Both the position numbers and the translations under genes were made by a program. The notes below the pieces were generated by a model. It was not told the DNA's origin. It did no database searches and was given only the letters and a program-made list of their open reading frames with translations. A DNA stretch of 64,000 nucleotides. It comes from an uncultured Candidatus Saccharibacteria bacterium (GTDB lineage Bacteria; Patescibacteriota; Doudnabacteria; UBA920). The stretch's first letter is position 1. Each line of letters starts with the position of its first letter. The stretch is from contig CAZKVS010000001.1 in assembly GCA_964556325.1 (NCBI GenBank), positions 67,133 to 131,132 on the forward strand, written 5' to 3'. Shown piece after piece: positions 503-35,784 of the stretch.

Positions 503-1021
503 TTAGTGGCGGATGTCAATTTGGACCATCCGCCGACGTCTTTCTGCTGGTACGTTGTCCCAGCAGCTCATCGTATAATGAAGTAGTTTCTCCGCTCCTC
601 GGATCTGAAACCATGACTTCTTGTCGCCTGGCCCTTTGACTCGGTGGATATATGGGTTACCCAAGAGTGGGGCCTGCGCCGTACATACGACTGGCATGTC
701 CAAGGGAAGATAAAGCTCTTCCGTGACTTCGCTGGTGTCTTTATATACCAGTAGTACGACATCATCCGGTGCGTCTGGATTACCGTCGGCGTCATCTGGC
801 CACTCGTGGAAAACGCTTTCCGGAATCAGGCAGGACTCGCCGGGCTGCATAGCCCCGAGTGTGGTGCGGTAACCCATCGCTGAGTTCTCGGAAGTAAAGC
901 TTACTTCTACCGAAGGGGTTGATTGGTTGGGGCTAAAATCCCTGCCCAACGTGAAACCCCACACTAGCACCCCGAACAGGACGATGAAGCAAAGCGCAAT
1001 TTTGAGAAAGGTGTTACCCAT
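503..1021 (-). CDS. Membrane-anchored S26 signal-peptidase-I-like protein (paralogue A; catalytic residues look divergent)
   Basis: N-terminal TM helix. LGAMQPGESCL resembles the GDSMxPT box. YIHRVKGPGD resembles the YVKRIIGLPGD box. Ser is replaced by Ala and Lys by His. Confidence 0.35.
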   Translation of the reverse strand: MGNTFLKIALCFIVLFGVLVWGFTLGRDFSPNQSTPSVEVSFTSENSAMGYRTTLGAMQPGESCLIPESVFHEWPDDADGNPDAPDDVVLLVYKDTSEVTEELYLPLDMPVVCTAQAPLLGNPYIHRVKGPGDKKSWFQIRGAEKLLHYTMSCWDNVPAERRRRMVQIDIRH

Positions 1022-1186: not shown

Positions 1187-1741
1187 TTAGTTGTCTTCGC
1201 CCCACATGCCGTCATCAACGGCAATGAGGTTTGACTTTTCGTTCTCAGGCATGCCTGCCAAGGCTCTGATACGCGTCTGCGTGTTCCCGGGTACATAGAT
1301 CCTGTACCAAGGCTCACTGTCCGTAGGTCCTTTAATCTTCCGGATATAGGACAGCCCGAACTTCGGAGCCTGCGGGGTACACAAGACCGGTGCACCTGCC
1401 GGGATGAATTCCTTGCCGTCTTCCGATTCAATTACCGGCAGAGCATCCGGTCCAAGCTTGCCTCGTCCTGCTTGCAGGAACATGTTCTCCGGTAGAACAC
1501 AGCGGTCGCCGGGTTGCATTGTTGCCACGGTTTTGAGTTGACCCAAGCAGCAAACCACCGGCGCCTGCTGGATGTGTTGAATCAAGTTGTTTTGTCCAGC
1601 CGCGGTGGGTGGTTTAAGGAAGTTTTGGTAGGCCCCCCAGCCTAAACCAAACCCAAAGAAAATAGCTGCAAGCAACATGAACGTTGCGGCAACCGGATCA
1701 TTAACCATGCTTTTTCTCAGATTAGCGAAAAAGGTCTTCAT
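1187..1741 (-). CDS. Membrane-anchored S26 signal-peptidase-I-like protein (paralogue B)
   Basis: Tandem paralogue of 503..1021. N-terminal TM helix. Motifs TMQPGDRCVLPE, SYIRKIKGPTD and VDDGMWGEDN. Confidence 0.35.
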   Translation of the reverse strand: MKTFFANLRKSMVNDPVAATFMLLAAIFFGFGLGWGAYQNFLKPPTAAGQNNLIQHIQQAPVVCCLGQLKTVATMQPGDRCVLPENMFLQAGRGKLGPDALPVIESEDGKEFIPAGAPVLCTPQAPKFGLSYIRKIKGPTDSEPWYRIYVPGNTQTRIRALAGMPENEKSNLIAVDDGMWGEDN

Positions 1742-20121: not shown

Positions 20122-20223
20122 ATATTTATTCCTTACGTTACTCTTCTCAATATGATAGCAGGCCTGCCAGAAAACCCAAAATAAGCCAGTATATGTGGAG
20201 TATTATACAATGAGTCTGTCATA

Positions 20224-21636
20224 TTACTGGTGTTGCTGGCGCACTTCTTCAAGTATACCCGCAAGCTGCTCACTTGTGTGTACTGGATATTCAGGCGGTT
20301 CGTAGGTGAGTTTGTATGGTTCTGGTAAACTTGCCAATTGTGCCTTCACGCGAGCTTTGACGCCGTCTATATTTTCGAATGATACTGCGTGTTTTCCGTT
20401 ATCAACGAACTTTTGGAGTAAGGGTTCGCCGAGTTGCTCTGTTTCTAGGCCGATTATATCTTCGACCATCATTCCCGCTTGGTCGAATACTCGGAATATC
20501 TGCTTTCTACCCGGCAGGCTACCTTTGCCTTGAGCGAGTTTTGCTTTGTATTCTATGGTACCGTCCTCATGGCGGAGTTCAGCCATTTTATATACTGCTT
20601 CGAACTTAGGATTATCCGTAATGTTTGCTACCTCTGTAGAGCTAATAAAGCAATCTATGGGTGCTTTTTCGTCCATCAGGTATTTGATTTTATATTCGTC
20701 CAAGTTGGAGAATACTTGTATGCGCACGTCCGCAAAGCCAACTTCGTCAAGCCTGCTTCGAACATATCGAGATTCTTCCAGTATGTCGCCACTGTCTATG
20801 GTTACCATGAACTGCTTTTGTTGAAATTCAGATTTTTTTGCTTCAGTTATAAACACTTCTAACCCATGGCGTAGTCCATAGGTATCTATCATGACCAAGA
20901 ATAGGTCGGCTTTGGTTTGTAAAACATCAAATACATACCGAAAAGCTTCTGGCTCTGTGGGAAAAGACTTAATAAACGCATGGTTAATGTTTGCGGATAG
21001 TTTTCCAGTCGGCTTAATCTCGGGGAATTTTCTATATGACTGCGGGGTAAACTGTGGCATGGGGCTATCAAGTAAATATGGTGCGCGAGTGCCTATCCAT
21101 ATGCCTTGTTCGAAACCTGCCAGTCTGACCGTCGCCCCAGCAACAATCATTTTTTCGCGAGCCGATATCTTAACGCGAGCCACTTTGGTGGTGAGGCGTA
21201 CTACATAGCCAAAGGCATTCATGGTAAAAGCCGTAATCATGTTTGCTTCTGCGAGTGGGGCCGTTACTCGCACAATTGGTTCCCCTGGGAAGAAAATAGT
21301 CCCTTCTGCAAGTGCATGAATGTCACCACTAAACGCAAAAGTGCGGTAAAAGTTTTCTGTTTCGGGTGAGTCTATAACCCCAATCATTTTTAGAGTTTCT
21401 ATGGCGTCGTCATCAAACCTCAATCGTAGCAAGTAATCCACATAACGCTCTAGTCCGTCAAAAATATAAAAACCCCAGTTAGCAGGTTTTTCACGAACTA
21501 CTAAGTCATAGGTGGCGATAGACTTGTGAATTCCACGGTTAATCCACGCCATATTTCCAACGTAGATATTGGTATATTCGATAAACGGTATATCCGAGAT
21601 GTCTACATCGTAATACTTTCGTTGATGTTGGGTCAT
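20224..21636 (-). CDS. pncB: Nicotinate phosphoribosyltransferase-family enzyme
   Basis: Size and layout fit NAPRTase (DSGDILEESRYVRSRLDE region). Subfamily is uncertain. Confidence 0.5.
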   Translation of the reverse strand: MTQHQRKYYDVDISDIPFIEYTNIYVGNMAWINRGIHKSIATYDLVVREKPANWGFYIFDGLERYVDYLLRLRFDDDAIETLKMIGVIDSPETENFYRTFAFSGDIHALAEGTIFFPGEPIVRVTAPLAEANMITAFTMNAFGYVVRLTTKVARVKISAREKMIVAGATVRLAGFEQGIWIGTRAPYLLDSPMPQFTPQSYRKFPEIKPTGKLSANINHAFIKSFPTEPEAFRYVFDVLQTKADLFLVMIDTYGLRHGLEVFITEAKKSEFQQKQFMVTIDSGDILEESRYVRSRLDEVGFADVRIQVFSNLDEYKIKYLMDEKAPIDCFISSTEVANITDNPKFEAVYKMAELRHEDGTIEYKAKLAQGKGSLPGRKQIFRVFDQAGMMVEDIIGLETEQLGEPLLQKFVDNGKHAVSFENIDGVKARVKAQLASLPEPYKLTYEPPEYPVHTSEQLAGILEEVRQQHQ

Positions 21637-21945
21637 AGATGAGAAGCCTAATTTTCTTAACTCATCATATATCTATACGAATTAAAATAAAAGGCTTGTG
21701 GGCGCGGGTGCGGGGTTGTTGGACATAAGTAGTATTTTATGGTAGAATGATAAATAAATTTACACTTTTGAGTAATAGCGCTTATTTGTAACTAGTTATA
21801 AGTTATAAATAGAGCGCTGTTACTTACACTAACAGTAAAGTACAAGGGATACCGTTTGTCTTGATATATACATAATTGAGACGGTAGTGCCCAGAAGCGT
21901 ATTTTAGATTGAAACTGTCAGAAAAAATCAAGGGAGGGAAAAACC

Positions 21946-22509
21946 TTGTTTATTTCATGTTTTGGAAGCGGAAGTGGCCAGCCGGGGGAGCTGGTATATG
22001 ATGCCATGTTGAGCGTGGGGCGTCTGCTAGCGCAAAGGCGTCACACCGTGGTTACCGGTGGATTTGGCGGCTCGGGCATGCAAGCACCAGCGCAGGGAGC
22101 AAAAGAAGCGGGCGGTGAATCTGTTGGCCACACGCTTTTGGGTCTTCCGCCAAACCAGTTCCTAACTCGTTTCTTCGATTACGGAGTTATGTTTCGTTCG
22201 CCTGAGCTGCAATTTGGCACTCGTCTTGGGCGCATGCTCGAGAGCGATGGTTTTATCATCGGCGCGGGTGGCGGGCCTGGTACTGCCGTCGAATTTTTCT
22301 CCATCGTCAATATGGCCTATAAAGGCTTTTCTAACAATCCACAAAAGCGATGCGCAATTTTGTGGCCCAGCGGGGCGAACGTCCCAGGTTGGGATAACGC
22401 TATGTTGGAACAACTAACGAAGTGGGGCCTTTTTCCTGCAGAGGCTCGAAAATACATCAAGGTATGCACAACGCCTGAAGAGGCGGTTGTCTGGGCTTGC
22501 GGTGAGTAG
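21946..22509 (+). CDS. LOG/TIGR00730-family Rossmann-fold protein (second, divergent paralogue)
   Basis: GGFGGSGMQAPAQGAKEAGGESVG and GAGGGPGTAVEF motifs. Confidence 0.55.
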   Translation: MFISCFGSGSGQPGELVYDAMLSVGRLLAQRRHTVVTGGFGGSGMQAPAQGAKEAGGESVGHTLLGLPPNQFLTRFFDYGVMFRSPELQFGTRLGRMLESDGFIIGAGGGPGTAVEFFSIVNMAYKGFSNNPQKRCAILWPSGANVPGWDNAMLEQLTKWGLFPAEARKYIKVCTTPEEAVVWACGE

Positions 22510-22591
22510 CCGAAAGTCTGGAAATTTAAAGAAGCCGGTAGTGTGTCACTGACACACTACCGGCTTCATTGTTTATAAACTTATTATAATT

Positions 22592-23053
22592 TTACGCCCG
22601 GTGGTGGTCGGCGCGCCAGTCTTTTATAGCTTCTTTAATTTGGTCGTTCGTCAGGTTTTCATCTACCGCTCGTTTGGCTAGTGCCAAGAACTCCGCGTCG
22701 CTCGCAAAACGGAGGGCAATTATTTGTGGCATGGTGAGTTTAGAATCAAACGGTTTGCCGGTCATGACAAAGTGACGAAGGTTTTCCTCGGACCGGATAG
22801 CACGGTCTTGCACTTTGGCTGCAAACAATCGGCTAAAGAAAAACTGCATAATAGCGGCAATGCTCAAACCGAATAGTATAACGGGCTCAATCCAGTTTGT
22901 AAGGCCGCAGCCGCCAGTATGCACATAGTGCCAACGGACGTTGTACACACTTGCAAAAAGAGCGAGGACAAGGAGTCCGAGTAATACGATGTGGTAGAGG
23001 GGAACAAGCTGCCTATGGTTTTTATAGTTCTGTTCTTTCATAGTACGAAGCAT
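22592..23053 (-). CDS. Hypothetical membrane protein
   Basis: Three predicted TM helices and a charged C-terminal domain. Confidence 0.4.
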   Translation of the reverse strand: MLRTMKEQNYKNHRQLVPLYHIVLLGLLVLALFASVYNVRWHYVHTGGCGLTNWIEPVILFGLSIAAIMQFFFSRLFAAKVQDRAIRSEENLRHFVMTGKPFDSKLTMPQIIALRFASDAEFLALAKRAVDENLTNDQIKEAIKDWRADHHRA

Positions 23054-23451
23054 AATGATTATGAATATATATTTATAATACCATACCCCTCAAGGCTTAT
23101 ATTTTTATAGCCTGTTTATATCCTAAATCTTCTACTTTGCCATATATTTTACAGGTAAAATGAAGTATTTCCCTTGTTTATGCAGGTTTAATGTATTGAC
23201 TTATATTAATATTTATGCTATAGTATTTGGTATTTTACAACAGCAGTTTGGGTGTGTATAAAAACTTACGTACGCAAGCTGCTATTGTAAAGGTCGCTTT
23301 TACATTAGTCAGAGTGGACTGTGAACGTCACAGCTCTTGTTCTGGTTCTGTTGCTAAATTTTTGTAAGAAAGCAACTAAACACTACCGACTTGTGCCCTC
23401 AAGCCCAAGTCAGCGACAAACTTCAGCACAAGTTTTTGGAGGAATGAATCA

Positions 23452-23847
23452 ATGCCGAGTAAGAAAAGATATCACCAACCCGCCAAGGTTTCCCAAGGGG
23501 CGCCCAAAGGTCCTAAAGCTCAGAATGATCTGGTGTCGCAGATGCAAGTCGGCGCGAGCATGTTCGTTGAGCGCACGGCAGTCAAGGCTGACATTAGCAA
23601 GCTGCCCCAAGCCAAAAGGGGGGAGGAACACCGGATTGAGATTGGTCAAATTGACGCAAACGCAAAGGTCAAGGTCGCCGGTCCCATCAAGATCAAGCGA
23701 TTGAACATCACTGACTATCTCATCGTCGGATATACGCCGAAAATGGCGATTCCCGCGCGGAGTGATACGGAAGGCGCGAAGAGGTGGCAATCTATCCAGC
23801 GGAGAGTGCAGGGCCACGCCCTGCTCAAGCTCGCGGTGAAGCTCTAA
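23452..23847 (+). CDS. Hypothetical protein in a compositionally atypical (GC-rich) island
   Basis: 131 aa, basic. Followed by a GC-rich hairpin and T-run at 23856..23886. Confidence 0.4.
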   Translation: MPSKKRYHQPAKVSQGAPKGPKAQNDLVSQMQVGASMFVERTAVKADISKLPQAKRGEEHRIEIGQIDANAKVKVAGPIKIKRLNITDYLIVGYTPKMAIPARSDTEGAKRWQSIQRRVQGHALLKLAVKL

Positions 23848-24177
23848 CTTTTACCGCCTCGACAATACTAGGACCACGTGCACGCTGTTCGCACGTGGTT
23901 CTTTTGCATGTACGTAACGGTATGACGGTAAACATGGCGGTGGGTGTGGCGGTTGCATAAATCGCTTATATATAATACAATTTTAGGTATTTTACTTTAG
24001 CAGACTACCTGTCTAGTTCTTAGGTGTTTAGTCTGCTGATGTGAAGTCGTGTGCACGGCAGGTACGTTATTGGTTTTAGTCCATAGCGTACTTGAGAGCT
24101 ATCCTCTCGTTCTTGATGGTCTTCCATTAAGAAAAGCGGCGGTTATTATTCGTAACTCTAACTATTGAAGGGGGAAT

Positions 24178-24471
24178 GTGGTGGTTAATACACCGGTTGT
24201 GGGCGTGCGTGTCCATTCCATGCAGTTTGGGGTTGAATATCATTTACCAATTGTCGCGCTTACGGCGGCAACAAAGAAACTCGACCGTAACGCCCTTACT
24301 ACGGCGGACGGCGAGCTTGTGGTAACTCGACGAGTCGGTTATGGATTCGTAGTGGTGCGCGCGCCGCAGGCGCTTGCGTATCTTGCGGAAACTAAGCCTG
24401 TCCCAAGGCCGCAAACTGGCACAATGCCAAAACACGTATTGACTTTAACTCGCGAACCCAACCAACATTAA
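24178..24471 (+). CDS. Hypothetical protein (GTG start) in the same GC-rich island
   Basis: GAAGGGGG Shine-Dalgarno about 8 nt upstream of the GTG. Terminator hairpin gccgcagcgatg...atcgctgcggc at 24495..24535. Confidence 0.35.
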   Translation: MVVNTPVVGVRVHSMQFGVEYHLPIVALTAATKKLDRNALTTADGELVVTRRVGYGFVVVRAPQALAYLAETKPVPRPQTGTMPKHVLTLTREPNQH

Positions 24472-24561
24472 TGGTGGCGTTCGCAGCATAAACAAGCCGC
24501 AGCGATGCATTTTATCGCTGCGGCCTTTTCTTTCAGTTCGAAATTATTTTTTGTAGGTATG

Positions 24562-25239
24562 CTATTGTTTACCGTTCATGGCGGCGAGGCATTGGGTCTT
24601 GGCTGGTTCTTGGAGGCCGGCGCACATTGCTTCCATGCTTTGTCCCTGTGTTGGCATGGTTTGGGTTTGACCGTTTAGCTGCATCTTTTGCATGTCCTGC
24701 ATCATTTTGGTCATGTCAGTAAATTCTACACCTGCGGGCAGGGTAAACTTGCTGCTATCTGGCGTCCAGTTGGAACACTTAAAGTTGAACTGTTTGTTGG
24801 GGTCTATGTTGGCTTGGCCGGAGTTGCCCACATCACCCTTTGTGGTGTTGCCTTGCATGGCTTCAAAGTCCATCTTATAGCCGGTCTTTTGGCCATCCAT
24901 CCAGCTATAACTGGTTTTACCGTCCATAATCATGTGCGAAGTAATGCTTGTAGAACCTGTTCCAACCATGGTCTCCATGCTCATTTTTCCACCACTTATG
25001 TATACAGTGCTGGTACCGAGCCCTTCACCCACGGTGTAGGTACAAGTTTGGGACTGTCCTAGGCCAAGTAGTCCTTTGAGGGTATTTTGCATACCTTGTG
25101 GCTGCATGGCTTCTTTTTCAGGTGTGGGCTTCATCATTTCATCCTTTACTTCGGCAGTATTCTTGCTGCGCATGAAGAACCCGGCGAGCAGGGCGATAAC
25201 TATTATGGCCCCCACTCCTATTGCAATTTTTTTGTTCAT
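24562..25239 (-). CDS. Secreted Met/Gln-rich protein
   Basis: N-terminal signal/TM. About 11% Met, in clusters (MTKMMQDMQKMQ). Four Cys. Confidence 0.45.
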   Translation of the reverse strand: MNKKIAIGVGAIIVIALLAGFFMRSKNTAEVKDEMMKPTPEKEAMQPQGMQNTLKGLLGLGQSQTCTYTVGEGLGTSTVYISGGKMSMETMVGTGSTSITSHMIMDGKTSYSWMDGQKTGYKMDFEAMQGNTTKGDVGNSGQANIDPNKQFNFKCSNWTPDSSKFTLPAGVEFTDMTKMMQDMQKMQLNGQTQTMPTQGQSMEAMCAGLQEPAKTQCLAAMNGKQ

Positions 25240-25292: not shown

Positions 25293-25733
25293 TTAGCTGA
25301 GGTTTAAGGGCCGAGTCGGTGCAATAATGCTTCTGGGGTCGGTTTTCCAGATATCCGAGACATCCGCGTAGAGTTCTAGCTCGTTACCGTCGGGGTCGGA
25401 TATGTAGATACTGTGGGTTACGGTATGGTCAGCGAGGCCGGTAATAGCTACACCCTTTGCAACTAATTCTTTATATACAGTTTTTAGCTCGTCGTGTGAG
25501 TTGGCTACTTTAAAACCAATATGGTATAGACCTGGTTCCGGGTTGTGGGGTGGCCTTGGGGCACCTCCAATTTCTATTAGAAGCATTTCATGGTGCGTCC
25601 GTCCGGAGGAAAACAGTGCGATTGGTCCTTCGCGGTGGATTTCCGTAAAGCCAAGCGTGTCACGGTAAAAATTTGCTACACGTTCTAAGTTGGTGACGTA
25701 GAGGACTACATGTCCGAGTTCAAGTATTTTCAT
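25293..25733 (-). CDS. VOC/glyoxalase-family protein
   Basis: MKILELGHVVLYVTNLERVANFYRDTLGF and a second beta-alpha-beta-beta-beta module. Confidence 0.65.
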   Translation of the reverse strand: MKILELGHVVLYVTNLERVANFYRDTLGFTEIHREGPIALFSSGRTHHEMLLIEIGGAPRPPHNPEPGLYHIGFKVANSHDELKTVYKELVAKGVAITGLADHTVTHSIYISDPDGNELELYADVSDIWKTDPRSIIAPTRPLNLS

Positions 25734-26310
25734 GGTGCATAAAAGGGTTTTCCATATCAAAAACAATTTTTGGAGTATGGTTGTTTATTATATCTTCGTC
25801 TAAATTATATTTTTCGCTATAGAGTGTACCCACTACGCAGAATTTTGCTGCAGACCACTGAAAGCCGACTTTTTCCGCTACGGCTTTAACAGCTGCTTCC
25901 GATGTTCCCTCTATTTCTACGAATGGTTCCAAGAACGGCCATTCATCTATAGTAATTTCCACGTCATCAAGCATCTACAACTCACGCTTGGTTTCTTGGT
26001 AGGCTTTTTCCTGGCAGCCAAGCAGCCGCAAAAACTCTACGCCTTCGTTGAAGCTGTTAATAGTGAGGCAAGATTCTTTTTGGTCGGTAATAGTTGTCCC
26101 GTCCACCACTTTTACACTCATGGTAATTTTATTACCTTCGTCTCGCACCCGAGCCCATCCACCCTTCACCTCGTGGCCGCTGGGGAGCTTAAAGGTAGTA
26201 CGCTTTTGGAGAAACTCAGGCCGCGCAAGGGTGGCTCCTGCGGCTGTGAGCTTGTGGCGAATAGACTCCTTATCTATATGTGGAAACGTAGCTTCGTATT
26301 CTATGTCCAT
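25720..26310 (-). pseudogene. CYTH-domain triphosphatase / class IV adenylate-cyclase-like gene interrupted by an in-frame TAG
   Basis: ORFs 25975..26310 and 25720..25974 share a frame and are separated only by TAG (plus-strand cta at 25975..25977). The N-part has the EYExxF signature. The C-part has EIEGTSE. Confidence 0.5.
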
Positions 26311-35710: not shown

Positions 35711-35784
35711 TGCCCGGTAGCCAAGTGGTAAGGCAGAGGACTCTGAATCCTCCATCCTAGGTTCGAATCCTAGCCGGGCAGCCA
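35711..35784 (+). tRNA. tRNA-Gln (anticodon CUG), CCA encoded
   Basis: Folded by hand. Acceptor TGCCCGG/CCGGGCA, anticodon stem GAGGA/TCCTC with loop CUCUGAA, T-arm CTAGG-TTCGAAT-CCTAG. The D-arm GCCAAGTGGTAAGGCA is close to E. coli tRNA-Gln. Confidence 0.8.

What the first reader, a model, noticed from the sequence alone, without database searches (positions are those of the whole stretch)
23300..24540. Compositionally atypical two-gene island
The ORFs 23452..23847 and 24178..24471 are visibly GC-richer (about 55%) than the surrounding roughly 45% GC genome. Each is followed by its own GC-rich hairpin terminator. They are preceded by a 400 bp AT-rich region and have no recognisable homology. 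This likely reflects recent horizontal acquisition, such as a phage or plasmid remnant or an addiction/defence module.
Basis: seen in the sequence. Interest (0 to 1): 0.5.

Follow-up and report, generated by a model that had tools for sequence, protein, structure and literature searches.

The report
Two stand-alone small-protein gene cassettes
The GC-rich "island" is two tandem, self-contained genes for small, very basic proteins found only in one group of Doudnabacteria-like (CPR) bacteria; both start with the same conserved RNA hairpin, the first gene is swapped for a different one in sister strains, and nothing links them to a phage, plasmid, toxin-antitoxin pair or defence system.

Summary
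ORF1 (23452-23847) is 55.1% GC and ORF2 (24178/24181-24471) 53% GC in a 45.1% GC window. Each ORF has its own terminator hairpin. A 398-nt AT-rich stretch lies upstream. Neither protein matches any library searched. The GC excess is not unique: 18 separate peaks of 54% or more occur in the window. Only ORF1 is atypical at synonymous sites (GC3 0.67, the highest of 75 ORFs). ORF2's excess comes from its amino-acid composition.

Each gene is a monocistronic unit: sigma70-like promoter, a conserved 18-bp stem-loop starting about 3 nt after the predicted transcription start, a structured leader of about 200 nt, a strong Shine-Dalgarno site, a small basic protein (pI above 10) and an intrinsic terminator. 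The stem-loop covaries and occurs nowhere else in the window.

All available relatives carry the array between the same two genes. In two of them, cassette 1 is replaced by a 176-aa paralogue of ORF2. The HGT reading is therefore partly supported, as gene turnover at slot 1 only. The phage, plasmid, addiction and defence readings have no support. Protein function remains unknown; nucleic-acid binding is my low-confidence guess. This is a new but fairly ordinary lineage-specific accessory locus.

The parts
23196..23224 (+). Promoter P1: TTGACT, 17-nt spacer, (TG)TATAGT
   Evidence: Consensus scan gives 10 of 12 matches with an extended -10 TG. It is conserved in L002, L032 and L007. It is a prediction; no transcription start has been mapped.
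23230..23297 (+). 5'-terminal stem-loop 1. The 18-bp stem begins 3 nt after the predicted transcription start.
   Evidence: MFE fold. Across 9 sequences, 93% of cells are paired, against 33-47% in slid controls, and 5 pairs show compensatory changes. Covariance model R1 scores 75 bits.
23230..23451 (+). Structured leader 1 (222 nt), with the SD GGAGGA at 23438-23443, 8 nt before the ATG
   Evidence: Fold z-score -3.95, with 0 of 200 shuffles folding as well. The SD is read directly from the sequence.
23452..23847 (+). ORF1: a 131-aa orphan protein, pI 10.4, with a K/P/A-rich N-terminal tail and a conserved beta-rich core
   Evidence: 24 of 42 substitutions against L002 fall at third codon positions. 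dN/dS is 0.18-0.21, with dS like that of the neighbours. The only homologues are alleles at 89-91% identity. GC3 is 0.672.
23870..23905 (+). Intrinsic terminator T1
   Evidence: 12-bp stem, -19.9 kcal/mol, z -4.8, followed by a U run.
23953..23981 (+). Promoter P2: TTGCAT, 17-nt spacer, TACAAT. The spacing to GTATTTTAC is the same 5 nt as in P1.
   Evidence: Read from the sequence. Direct repeat D1 covers P1 and P2 with 757-nt spacing, and the two align. The -35 matches the consensus at only 3 of 6 positions, so the scan did not list it.
23987..24050 (+). 5'-terminal stem-loop 2
   Evidence: R1 scores 80.6 bits. It shows C-G to U-A and A-U to G-C or G-U exchanges relative to stem-loop 1 and among alleles.
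23987..24180 (+). Structured leader 2 (194 nt), with the SD AAGGGGG at 24168-24174
   Evidence: Fold z -4.32. The consensus fold of 5 alleles has 4 compensatory pairs.
24181..24471 (+). ORF2: a 96-aa orphan protein (97 aa if counted from GTG 24178), pI 10.1
   Evidence: It is 36% identical (E 1e-14, shuffle z 20) to the C-terminal half of the 176-aa protein in slot 1 of L007 and L036. L007 carries an in-frame 3-nt indel. The profile search of 1.84 billion representatives found only these two clusters.
24496..24533 (+). Intrinsic terminator T2, shared with the convergent gene 24562-25239(-)
   Evidence: 12-bp stem, -22.5 kcal/mol, z -6.2.

Best explanation
Shown or strongly indicated:
- The locus is a tandem pair of autonomous expression cassettes in a Doudnabacteria-like CPR bacterium.
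- Each cassette has a predicted sigma70-type promoter followed by a conserved, covarying 18-bp stem-loop.
- Each then has a structured leader of about 200 nt, a strong Shine-Dalgarno site, a small very basic protein restricted to this lineage, and an intrinsic terminator.
- ORF1 and ORF2 are real protein-coding genes.
- ORF2 belongs to a two-member family with the 176-aa protein that replaces ORF1 in sister strains.

Inferred:
- The transcript begins 0-3 nt before the stem-loop.
- The 5'-terminal stem-loop shields the mRNA from 5'-end-dependent RNases, in the manner of the ompA and aprE leaders. Because all three cassette types share it, it may also serve as a common regulatory handle.
- Together with the strong SD, it would give high and stable expression.
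- The products most likely bind nucleic acid, for example as nucleoid-, ribosome- or RNA-associated proteins.
- Slot 1 is exchanged between strains by homologous recombination. The left anchor would be the shared promoter and stem-loop sequence. The right anchor would be P2 and ORF2. This would account for the ORF1-to-paralogue swap and for ORF1's foreign-looking GC3.
For: Architecture:
- Promoters, SD sites and terminators.
- P1 and P2 form a direct repeat.
- Stem-loop: 93% of cells paired against 33-47% in slid controls, 5 compensatory pairs, and 0 of 500 shuffles reaching the observed covariation score.
- About 19% of stem-loop cells are G.U pairs. The + strand scores 75-81 bits and the - strand 26-37 bits, which points to an RNA on the + strand.
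- Model R1 hits only the two cassette starts in the 64 kb window. In the relatives it hits only the equivalent positions.
- Leaders fold with z -3.5 to -4.3, whereas the ORF bodies give z about -1.

Coding:
- ORF1 has a third-position excess of substitutions and dN/dS of about 0.2.
- ORF2 and A7 are homologous as proteins, and L007 has an in-frame indel in ORF2.
- All three proteins have pI 10.1-10.7.

Turnover:
- L007 and L036 carry a different leader, ORF and terminator between window-equivalent positions 23254 and 23953.
- ORF1 GC3 is 0.67 and A7 GC3 is 0.61, against a genome mean of 0.455.
- The sequence mosaic shows that recombination occurs in this region.

Precedent:
- Protection of mRNA by 5'-terminal stem-loops is established; see the references collected in PMC3997798.
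Against: - No transcription start, expression or protein data exist, so the 5'-terminal position of the hairpin rests on promoter prediction.
- P2's -35 matches the consensus at only 3 of 6 positions.
- Both AlphaFold models are unusable (pLDDT 39 and 44). Basic charge is therefore the only clue to biochemical function.
- ORF2 has dN/dS of 0.3-1.25 with unusually low dS. A simple picture of purifying selection on a protein does not explain this.
- ORF1 shows no significant similarity to ORF2 or A7, so a common origin for the three ORFs is unproven.
- All relatives are close (83% protein identity or more). The age and origin of the array are unknown.
Confidence: 0.55

Rival explanations
1. The two genes form a recently acquired island, either a remnant of a phage or plasmid or a two-gene addiction or defence module.
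For: - ORF1 has the highest GC3 in the window.
- Slot 1 differs between sister strains.
- Each gene having its own promoter, its own terminator and deviant GC is the textbook description of a phage moron (PMC3594210).
Against: - No phage, plasmid, integrase or transposase genes lie within +/-10 kb.
- No tRNA or att-like repeats flank the locus.
- There are no hits in PHROGs, PADLOC, 50,697 phage records, 72,556 plasmids or IMG/VR.
- The genes are two separate transcription units and both products are basic.
- ORF2 stays in place while slot 1 swaps.
- ORF2 has normal GC3.
- Every relative covering the site carries the array.
Confidence: 0.12
2. These are ordinary, vertically inherited lineage-specific genes. 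The GC excess reflects only amino-acid composition and expression-linked codon choice, and there is no island or mobility at all.
For: - ORF2's excess lies in GC1, not GC3.
- Eighteen comparable GC peaks occur in the window.
- Other orphan genes in the window (503-1021 and 1187-1741) also have GC3 of about 0.60.
- The array sits at the same position in all relatives.
Against: - Slot 1 holds two unrelated genes in haplotypes whose flanks are 84-91% identical.
- ORF1's GC3 stands well clear of the next highest value (0.67 against 0.60).
- Leader 2 is 63-70% identical between the two haplotypes, while the 3' part of ORF2 is 99% identical. That pattern indicates recombination.
Confidence: 0.25
3. 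The GC-rich segments are structured non-coding RNAs and the ORFs are accidental.
For: - GC-rich islands with their own promoter and terminator in an AT-richer genome are a classic ncRNA signal.
- The leaders are strongly structured.
- ORF2 has low dS and high dN/dS.
Against: - No Rfam family matches, even at E up to 10.
- The ORF bodies fold no better than shuffled sequence (z -1.1 and -1.0).
- ORF1 has dN/dS of 0.2 and a third-position excess of substitutions.
- ORF2 and A7 are 36% identical as proteins with no detectable DNA similarity.
- Both ORFs have strong SD sites at the correct spacing.
- L007 has an in-frame indel in ORF2.
Confidence: 0.05

Closest known systems
Phage morons (for example HK97 gene 15)
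   Same: Each is a single small gene with its own promoter and its own intrinsic terminator. Its GC content differs from that of its neighbours, and it is present or replaced between otherwise similar genomes (PMC3594210).
   Different: The surroundings are housekeeping-type chromosomal genes, not a prophage. No phage record or IMG/VR contig carries the proteins or the hairpin. Morons are not known to share a conserved 5' RNA hairpin.
5'-terminal stem-loop mRNA stabilisers (E. coli ompA and papA leaders, B. subtilis aprE leader; structured hbs 5' UTR)
   Same: There is a long, stable hairpin within a few nucleotides of the predicted 5' end. It is followed by a long leader and a strong SD, upstream of a small basic protein, as in hbs (PMC3997798; PMC5737220).
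   Different: There is no sequence relationship. The 5' end and any effect on stability are untested. Here the same hairpin is shared by three different ORFs and is confined to this locus. That suggests a specific recognition element rather than a generic stabiliser.
Integron gene cassettes
   Same: Tandem single-gene units occupy the site, and its content differs between strains.
   Different: No integrase gene was seen. No attC-like element follows the ORFs; plain terminators do. Each unit carries its own promoter.
Type II toxin-antitoxin modules
   Same: Two adjacent small genes.
   Different: They are not an operon. Both products are basic. Neither matches a family in Pfam or PADLOC. The partners do not co-vary.

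Membership tests
Phage moron | Independent transcription unit with its own promoter and terminator | tested here: met
   Predicted promoters and intrinsic terminators flank each ORF. This is a sequence prediction only.
Phage moron | Nucleotide composition differs from that of neighbouring genes | tested here: inconclusive
   ORF1 has GC3 z +3.3. ORF2 has normal GC3. Eighteen similar GC peaks occur in the window.
Phage moron | Inserted between genes of a phage or prophage | tested here: not met
   The neighbours are NAPRTase, a LOG-like gene, DUF6526, glyoxalase, ApbE, YecM and similar genes. No phage genes lie within +/-10 kb. No match was found in phage collections.
Horizontally acquired genomic island | Absent from the same site in close relatives | tested here: not met
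   All 7 distinct relatives that cover the site carry the array. Slot 1 is replaced, not empty, in L007 and L036. The more distant relative L008 is cut off 24 nt short of the site.
Horizontally acquired genomic island | Mobility signatures: integrase or transposase, tRNA target, flanking direct repeats | tested here: not met
   The only tRNA is 12 kb away. There are no flanking repeats. No mobility genes were seen.
Type II toxin-antitoxin / addiction module | Two co-transcribed genes with products from known toxin and antitoxin families | tested here: not met
   A terminator and a second promoter lie between the genes. There are no Pfam, NCBIfam or PADLOC hits.
Known anti-phage defence systems (PADLOC) | Match to a defence-protein model | tested here: not met
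   No family matched ORF1, ORF2 or A7 at E up to 1.
5'-terminal stem-loop mRNA stabiliser | Conserved base-paired stem | tested here: met
   18 pairs, 93% of cells paired, 5 pairs with compensatory changes, and slid controls at or below 47%.
5'-terminal stem-loop mRNA stabiliser | Stem begins within about 4 nt of the actual 5' end, and its removal shortens mRNA half-life | not testable with these tools
   Only the promoter geometry is available: the -10 ends 5 nt before GTATTTTAC in all 9 sequences.
Any Rfam RNA family | Score at or above the gathering threshold | tested here: not met
   Only a tRNA at 35711 passes in the whole window. At E up to 10 the locus gives only chance hairpin matches.

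The most novel reading that the evidence does not exclude
The shared promoter and 5' stem-loop could be a dedicated handle that defines a family of interchangeable expression cassettes in CPR bacteria. A specific RNA-binding factor, possibly the basic cassette proteins themselves in an autoregulatory loop, would recognise the hairpin. The same sequence would act as the recombination anchor that lets strains swap cargo genes. Cassette exchange of this kind, without an integrase, has not been described.
Probability: 0.1. Interest if true: 0.6.

Novelty: new member of a known kind. Interest (0 to 1): 0.3.

Why it matters
CPR (Patescibacteria) genomes are full of unannotated small genes, and few have any handle for study. 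This locus offers three.

1. There are two orphan protein families with evidence that they are really coding.
2. There is a covarying RNA stem-loop that is not in Rfam. It marks these cassettes specifically and could be used to find more of them.
3. There is a clear case of cassette replacement between strains, at a site within a larger strain-variable region.

If the hairpin proves to be a regulatory or recognition element, it would give a small, testable model of gene regulation and gene turnover in organisms that cannot yet be cultured. If not, this is a routine lineage-specific accessory locus.

Tried and rejected
- **Library searches for ORF1, ORF2 and A7.** Pfam, PHROGs, NCBIfam and PADLOC gave nothing at or below E = 0.01, and all weak hits lay far below family cut-offs.
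- **PDB sequence profiles.** No match at E up to 10.
- **Word-indexed search of 5.8 billion proteins.** It returned only alleles at 83% identity or more.
- **Exhaustive HMMER profile search with ORF2 plus A7 against 1.84 billion representatives.** It returned only the two input clusters and one spurious hit, an Ig-like tandem-repeat protein whose score accumulates over 9 repeats.
- **Other collections.** GTDB genomes, JGI metagenomes, IMG/VR, and phage and plasmid records gave no relatives.
- **AlphaFold2 on both proteins.** pLDDT was 39 and 44. I ran no fold search because matches to such models are meaningless.
- **ORF1 as a divergent member of the ORF2/A7 family.** By eye there is a suggestive pattern (MQxG ... 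D.NA ... G ... [AT]P ... H.L.L). However, hhalign gave probability 0.8% and shuffle z-scores were 1.7 and 0.5. Rejected as unproven.
- **RNA structure inside the ORF2 coding body as the cause of its low dS.** The fold z-score is -0.98. Not supported.
- **The hairpin as a general 5'-UTR style of this genome.** A loosely similar inverted repeat lies upstream of the LOG-like gene. The covariance model nevertheless finds no further copy in the window.
- **Site occupancy in a more distant relative.** The only one found (L008, a Candidatus Doudnabacteria MAG) ends 24 nt short of the site. The JGI hits for DUF6526 are at most 55% identical and carry none of the three proteins.

Full report
**1. Observation**

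The window averages 45.1% GC. ORF1 (23452-23847, 131 aa) is 55.1% GC and ORF2 (24178-24471, 97 aa) is 53.1% GC. In 400-nt windows ORF1 lies at the 99.4-99.9th percentile. In 300-nt windows ORF2 lies at about the 96-97th percentile. Eighteen separate stretches of 54% GC or more occur in the 64 kb. The highest (58.7%) is the LOG-like gene just upstream.

Splitting GC by codon position shows that the two ORFs differ:
- ORF1 has GC3 = 0.672, the top value among 68 to 75 ORFs (z +3.3).
- ORF2 has ordinary GC3 (0.49). Its excess lies in GC1 (0.68, z +3.1), so it reflects amino-acid composition.

Both terminator hairpins are real. The first (23870-23902) folds at -19.9 kcal/mol and the second (24496-24524) at -22.5 kcal/mol. 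Each is followed by a U run.

The "400-bp AT-rich region" is 398 nt at 33.9% GC. It consists of 176 nt of intergenic DNA (25% GC) and a 222-nt leader (41% GC).

**2. Anatomy**

Each ORF is a separate transcription unit.

- P1 is TTGACT-17-TGnTATAGT at 23196-23224.
- P2 is TTGCAT-17-TACAAT at 23953-23981. I read it from the sequence. Its -35 matches the consensus at 3 of 6 positions, so the scan did not list it.
- P1 and P2 form a 37-nt direct repeat 757 nt apart.
- In both, the -10 ends exactly 5 nt before the sequence GTATTTTAC.

From that point each leader forms a long hairpin. I tested an 18-bp stem on nine distinct sequences: P1 with ORF1 from 3 alleles, P2 from 5 alleles, and P1 with the alternative gene from L007. 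The results were:
- 93.2% of cells are paired, against 33-47% when the partner column is slid.
- Five pairs carry changes on both sides.
- 0 of 500 shuffles reach the observed covariation score.
- About a fifth of the cells are G.U pairs.
- A covariance model of the element scores 75-81 bits on the + strand and 26-37 bits on the - strand.

These figures fit an RNA structure on the + strand rather than a DNA palindrome. The model finds no other copy in the window. In the related contigs it finds copies only at the equivalent positions.

The whole leaders are strongly structured (z -3.95, -4.32 and -3.53). Leader 2 keeps several stems through compensatory changes. The ORF bodies are not unusually structured (z -1.1 and -1.0). 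A control gene gives z -1.2.

The SD sites are strong:
- GGAGGA lies 8 nt before the ORF1 ATG.
- AAGGGGG lies 6 nt before GTG 24181.

The start at 24181 is the likelier one for ORF2, because L032 has GCG at 24178.

**3. Are the ORFs genes?**

ORF1 appears to be a real, fairly fast-evolving protein gene. Against L002, 24 of 42 substitutions fall at third codon positions in the ORF1 frame. The figure for the neighbouring DUF6526 gene is 31 of 38. dN/dS is 0.18-0.21, with dS (0.27-0.32) like that of the neighbours. The amino-acid changes cluster in the basic N-terminal tail, and residues 44-131 are almost invariant.

The evidence for ORF2 rests on a paralogue. In L007 and L036, slot 1 holds a 176-aa protein (A7, P0004). 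Its C-terminal 86 residues are 36% identical to ORF2 (E 1e-14, shuffle z 20), with no detectable DNA similarity. L007 also has an in-frame 3-nt indel near the ORF2 start.

One feature of ORF2 is unexplained. Its dS is 3 to 9 times lower than in flanking genes in every comparison, and its dN/dS is 0.3-1.25. Its 3' two-thirds are 92-99% identical even to haplotypes in which leader 2 is only 63-70% identical.

All three proteins are strongly basic, with pI 10.1-10.7.

**4. Homology**

There were no hits in Pfam, PHROGs, NCBIfam, PADLOC, PDB sequences or Rfam. The 5.8-billion-protein index returned only alleles at 83% identity or more, all from Logan or NCBI metagenome contigs.

An exhaustive HMMER search with an ORF2 plus A7 profile against 1.84 billion representatives returned the two input clusters and one spurious repeat protein. 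GTDB genomes, JGI metagenomes, IMG/VR, phage records and plasmid records gave nothing.

AlphaFold models were unusable. ORF1 is not significantly similar to ORF2 or A7.

**5. Organism and context**

The nearest named genome is a Candidatus Doudnabacteria MAG, whose DUF6526 protein is 74% identical. Genes within +/-10 kb are of housekeeping type: NAPRTase, a LOG-like gene, DUF6526, glyoxalase, a 2'-5' RNA ligase-like gene, ApbE, YecM and a hydrolase. No mobile-element or phage genes are present. The only tRNA is 12 kb away. No repeats flank the locus.

**6. Relatives**

Seven distinct related contigs cover the site. All carry the array between DUF6526 and the 225/229-aa gene.
- Four haplotypes have ORF1 followed by ORF2.
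- Two haplotypes (L007 and L036) have A7 followed by ORF2. Homology to the window breaks at 23254, inside stem-loop 1, and resumes at 23953, the -35 of P2. The replaced block is therefore exactly one leader, ORF and terminator unit.

A7 has its own terminator. That terminator resembles T2. A7 also has high GC3 (0.61).

The region is a recombination mosaic. L007 is 100% identical to the window across the NAPRTase gene and then about 80% identical.

**7. Interpretation**

My best explanation is that these are two autonomous cassettes for small basic proteins restricted to this lineage. They share a promoter and a 5'-terminal stem-loop.

I infer that the stem-loop acts as an mRNA stabiliser, as in the ompA, papA and aprE precedents listed in PMC3997798. 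The structured hbs 5' UTR of B. subtilis is a further parallel (PMC5737220). The stem-loop may also serve as a common regulatory handle.

I infer, with low confidence, that the proteins bind nucleic acid.

Slot 1 is exchanged between strains, probably by homologous recombination anchored in the conserved flanks. The architecture matches the textbook description of a phage moron (PMC3594210), but the phage context, which defines a moron, is absent.

The toxin-antitoxin, defence, integron and ncRNA-only readings each fail at least one tested defining feature.

**8. Verdict**

The finding is real, and it is richer than "two GC-rich ORFs". It is still an ordinary kind of thing: a strain-variable accessory locus of orphan genes in a CPR genome. 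The undescribed covarying hairpin and the clean cassette swap are the points worth keeping.

I score interest at 0.3 and rate novelty as a new member of a known kind.

Noticed in passing
window 20163-22592: This is a strain-variable segment immediately to the left of DUF6526. The window, L007, L036 and L037 carry NAPRTase (20224-21636, -) plus a 187-aa LOG-like gene (21946-22509, +), which is the highest GC peak of the window at 58.7%. L001-L004 carry an epimerase gene there instead. L032 and the Doudnabacteria MAG L008 have only a spacer of about 150 nt. All versions diverge right after ...TCTCAATATGATAGCAGG (window 20162).
   Followed up: partly
window 20200-21600 vs L007: L007 is 100% identical to the window across the NAPRTase gene. 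Identity drops to about 68-85% from 21700 onward. This could be recent recombination between strains or a chimeric metagenome contig.
   Followed up: no
window 503-1021 (-) and 1187-1741 (-): These are two paralogous orphan genes of 172 and 184 aa. Each has an N-terminal transmembrane helix and a shared '(A)MQPG..C.(I/L)PE ... C(T)(A/P)QAP ... YI(H/R)(R/K)(V/I)KGP' core. They are GC-rich (53%, GC3 0.60) and have no Pfam hit. Elevated GC3 may be a general trait of this genome's lineage-specific genes.
   Followed up: partly
window 24255-24525 (3' part of ORF2 and T2): Synonymous divergence here is 3 to 9 times lower than in neighbouring genes in every allele pair. The stretch is 99% identical to haplotypes in which the adjacent leader is only 63-70% identical. 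There is no excess RNA structure. The cause could be a gene-specific sweep or an unseen constraint.
   Followed up: partly
window 22531-22567: A perfect 17-bp GC-rich hairpin lies between the convergent LOG-like and DUF6526 genes. It looks like a bidirectional terminator.
   Followed up: no
window 21720-21860: A long imperfect inverted repeat (GTAATAGCGCT ... AGCGCTGTTAC) lies in the AT-rich region upstream of the LOG-like gene. It is superficially like the cassette hairpin, but the covariance model does not detect it.
   Followed up: partly
window 25720-26310 (-): Two abutting ORFs of 84 aa and 111 aa have no Pfam hit on record. They could be one gene split by a stop codon or frameshift. I did not examine this.
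   Followed up: no
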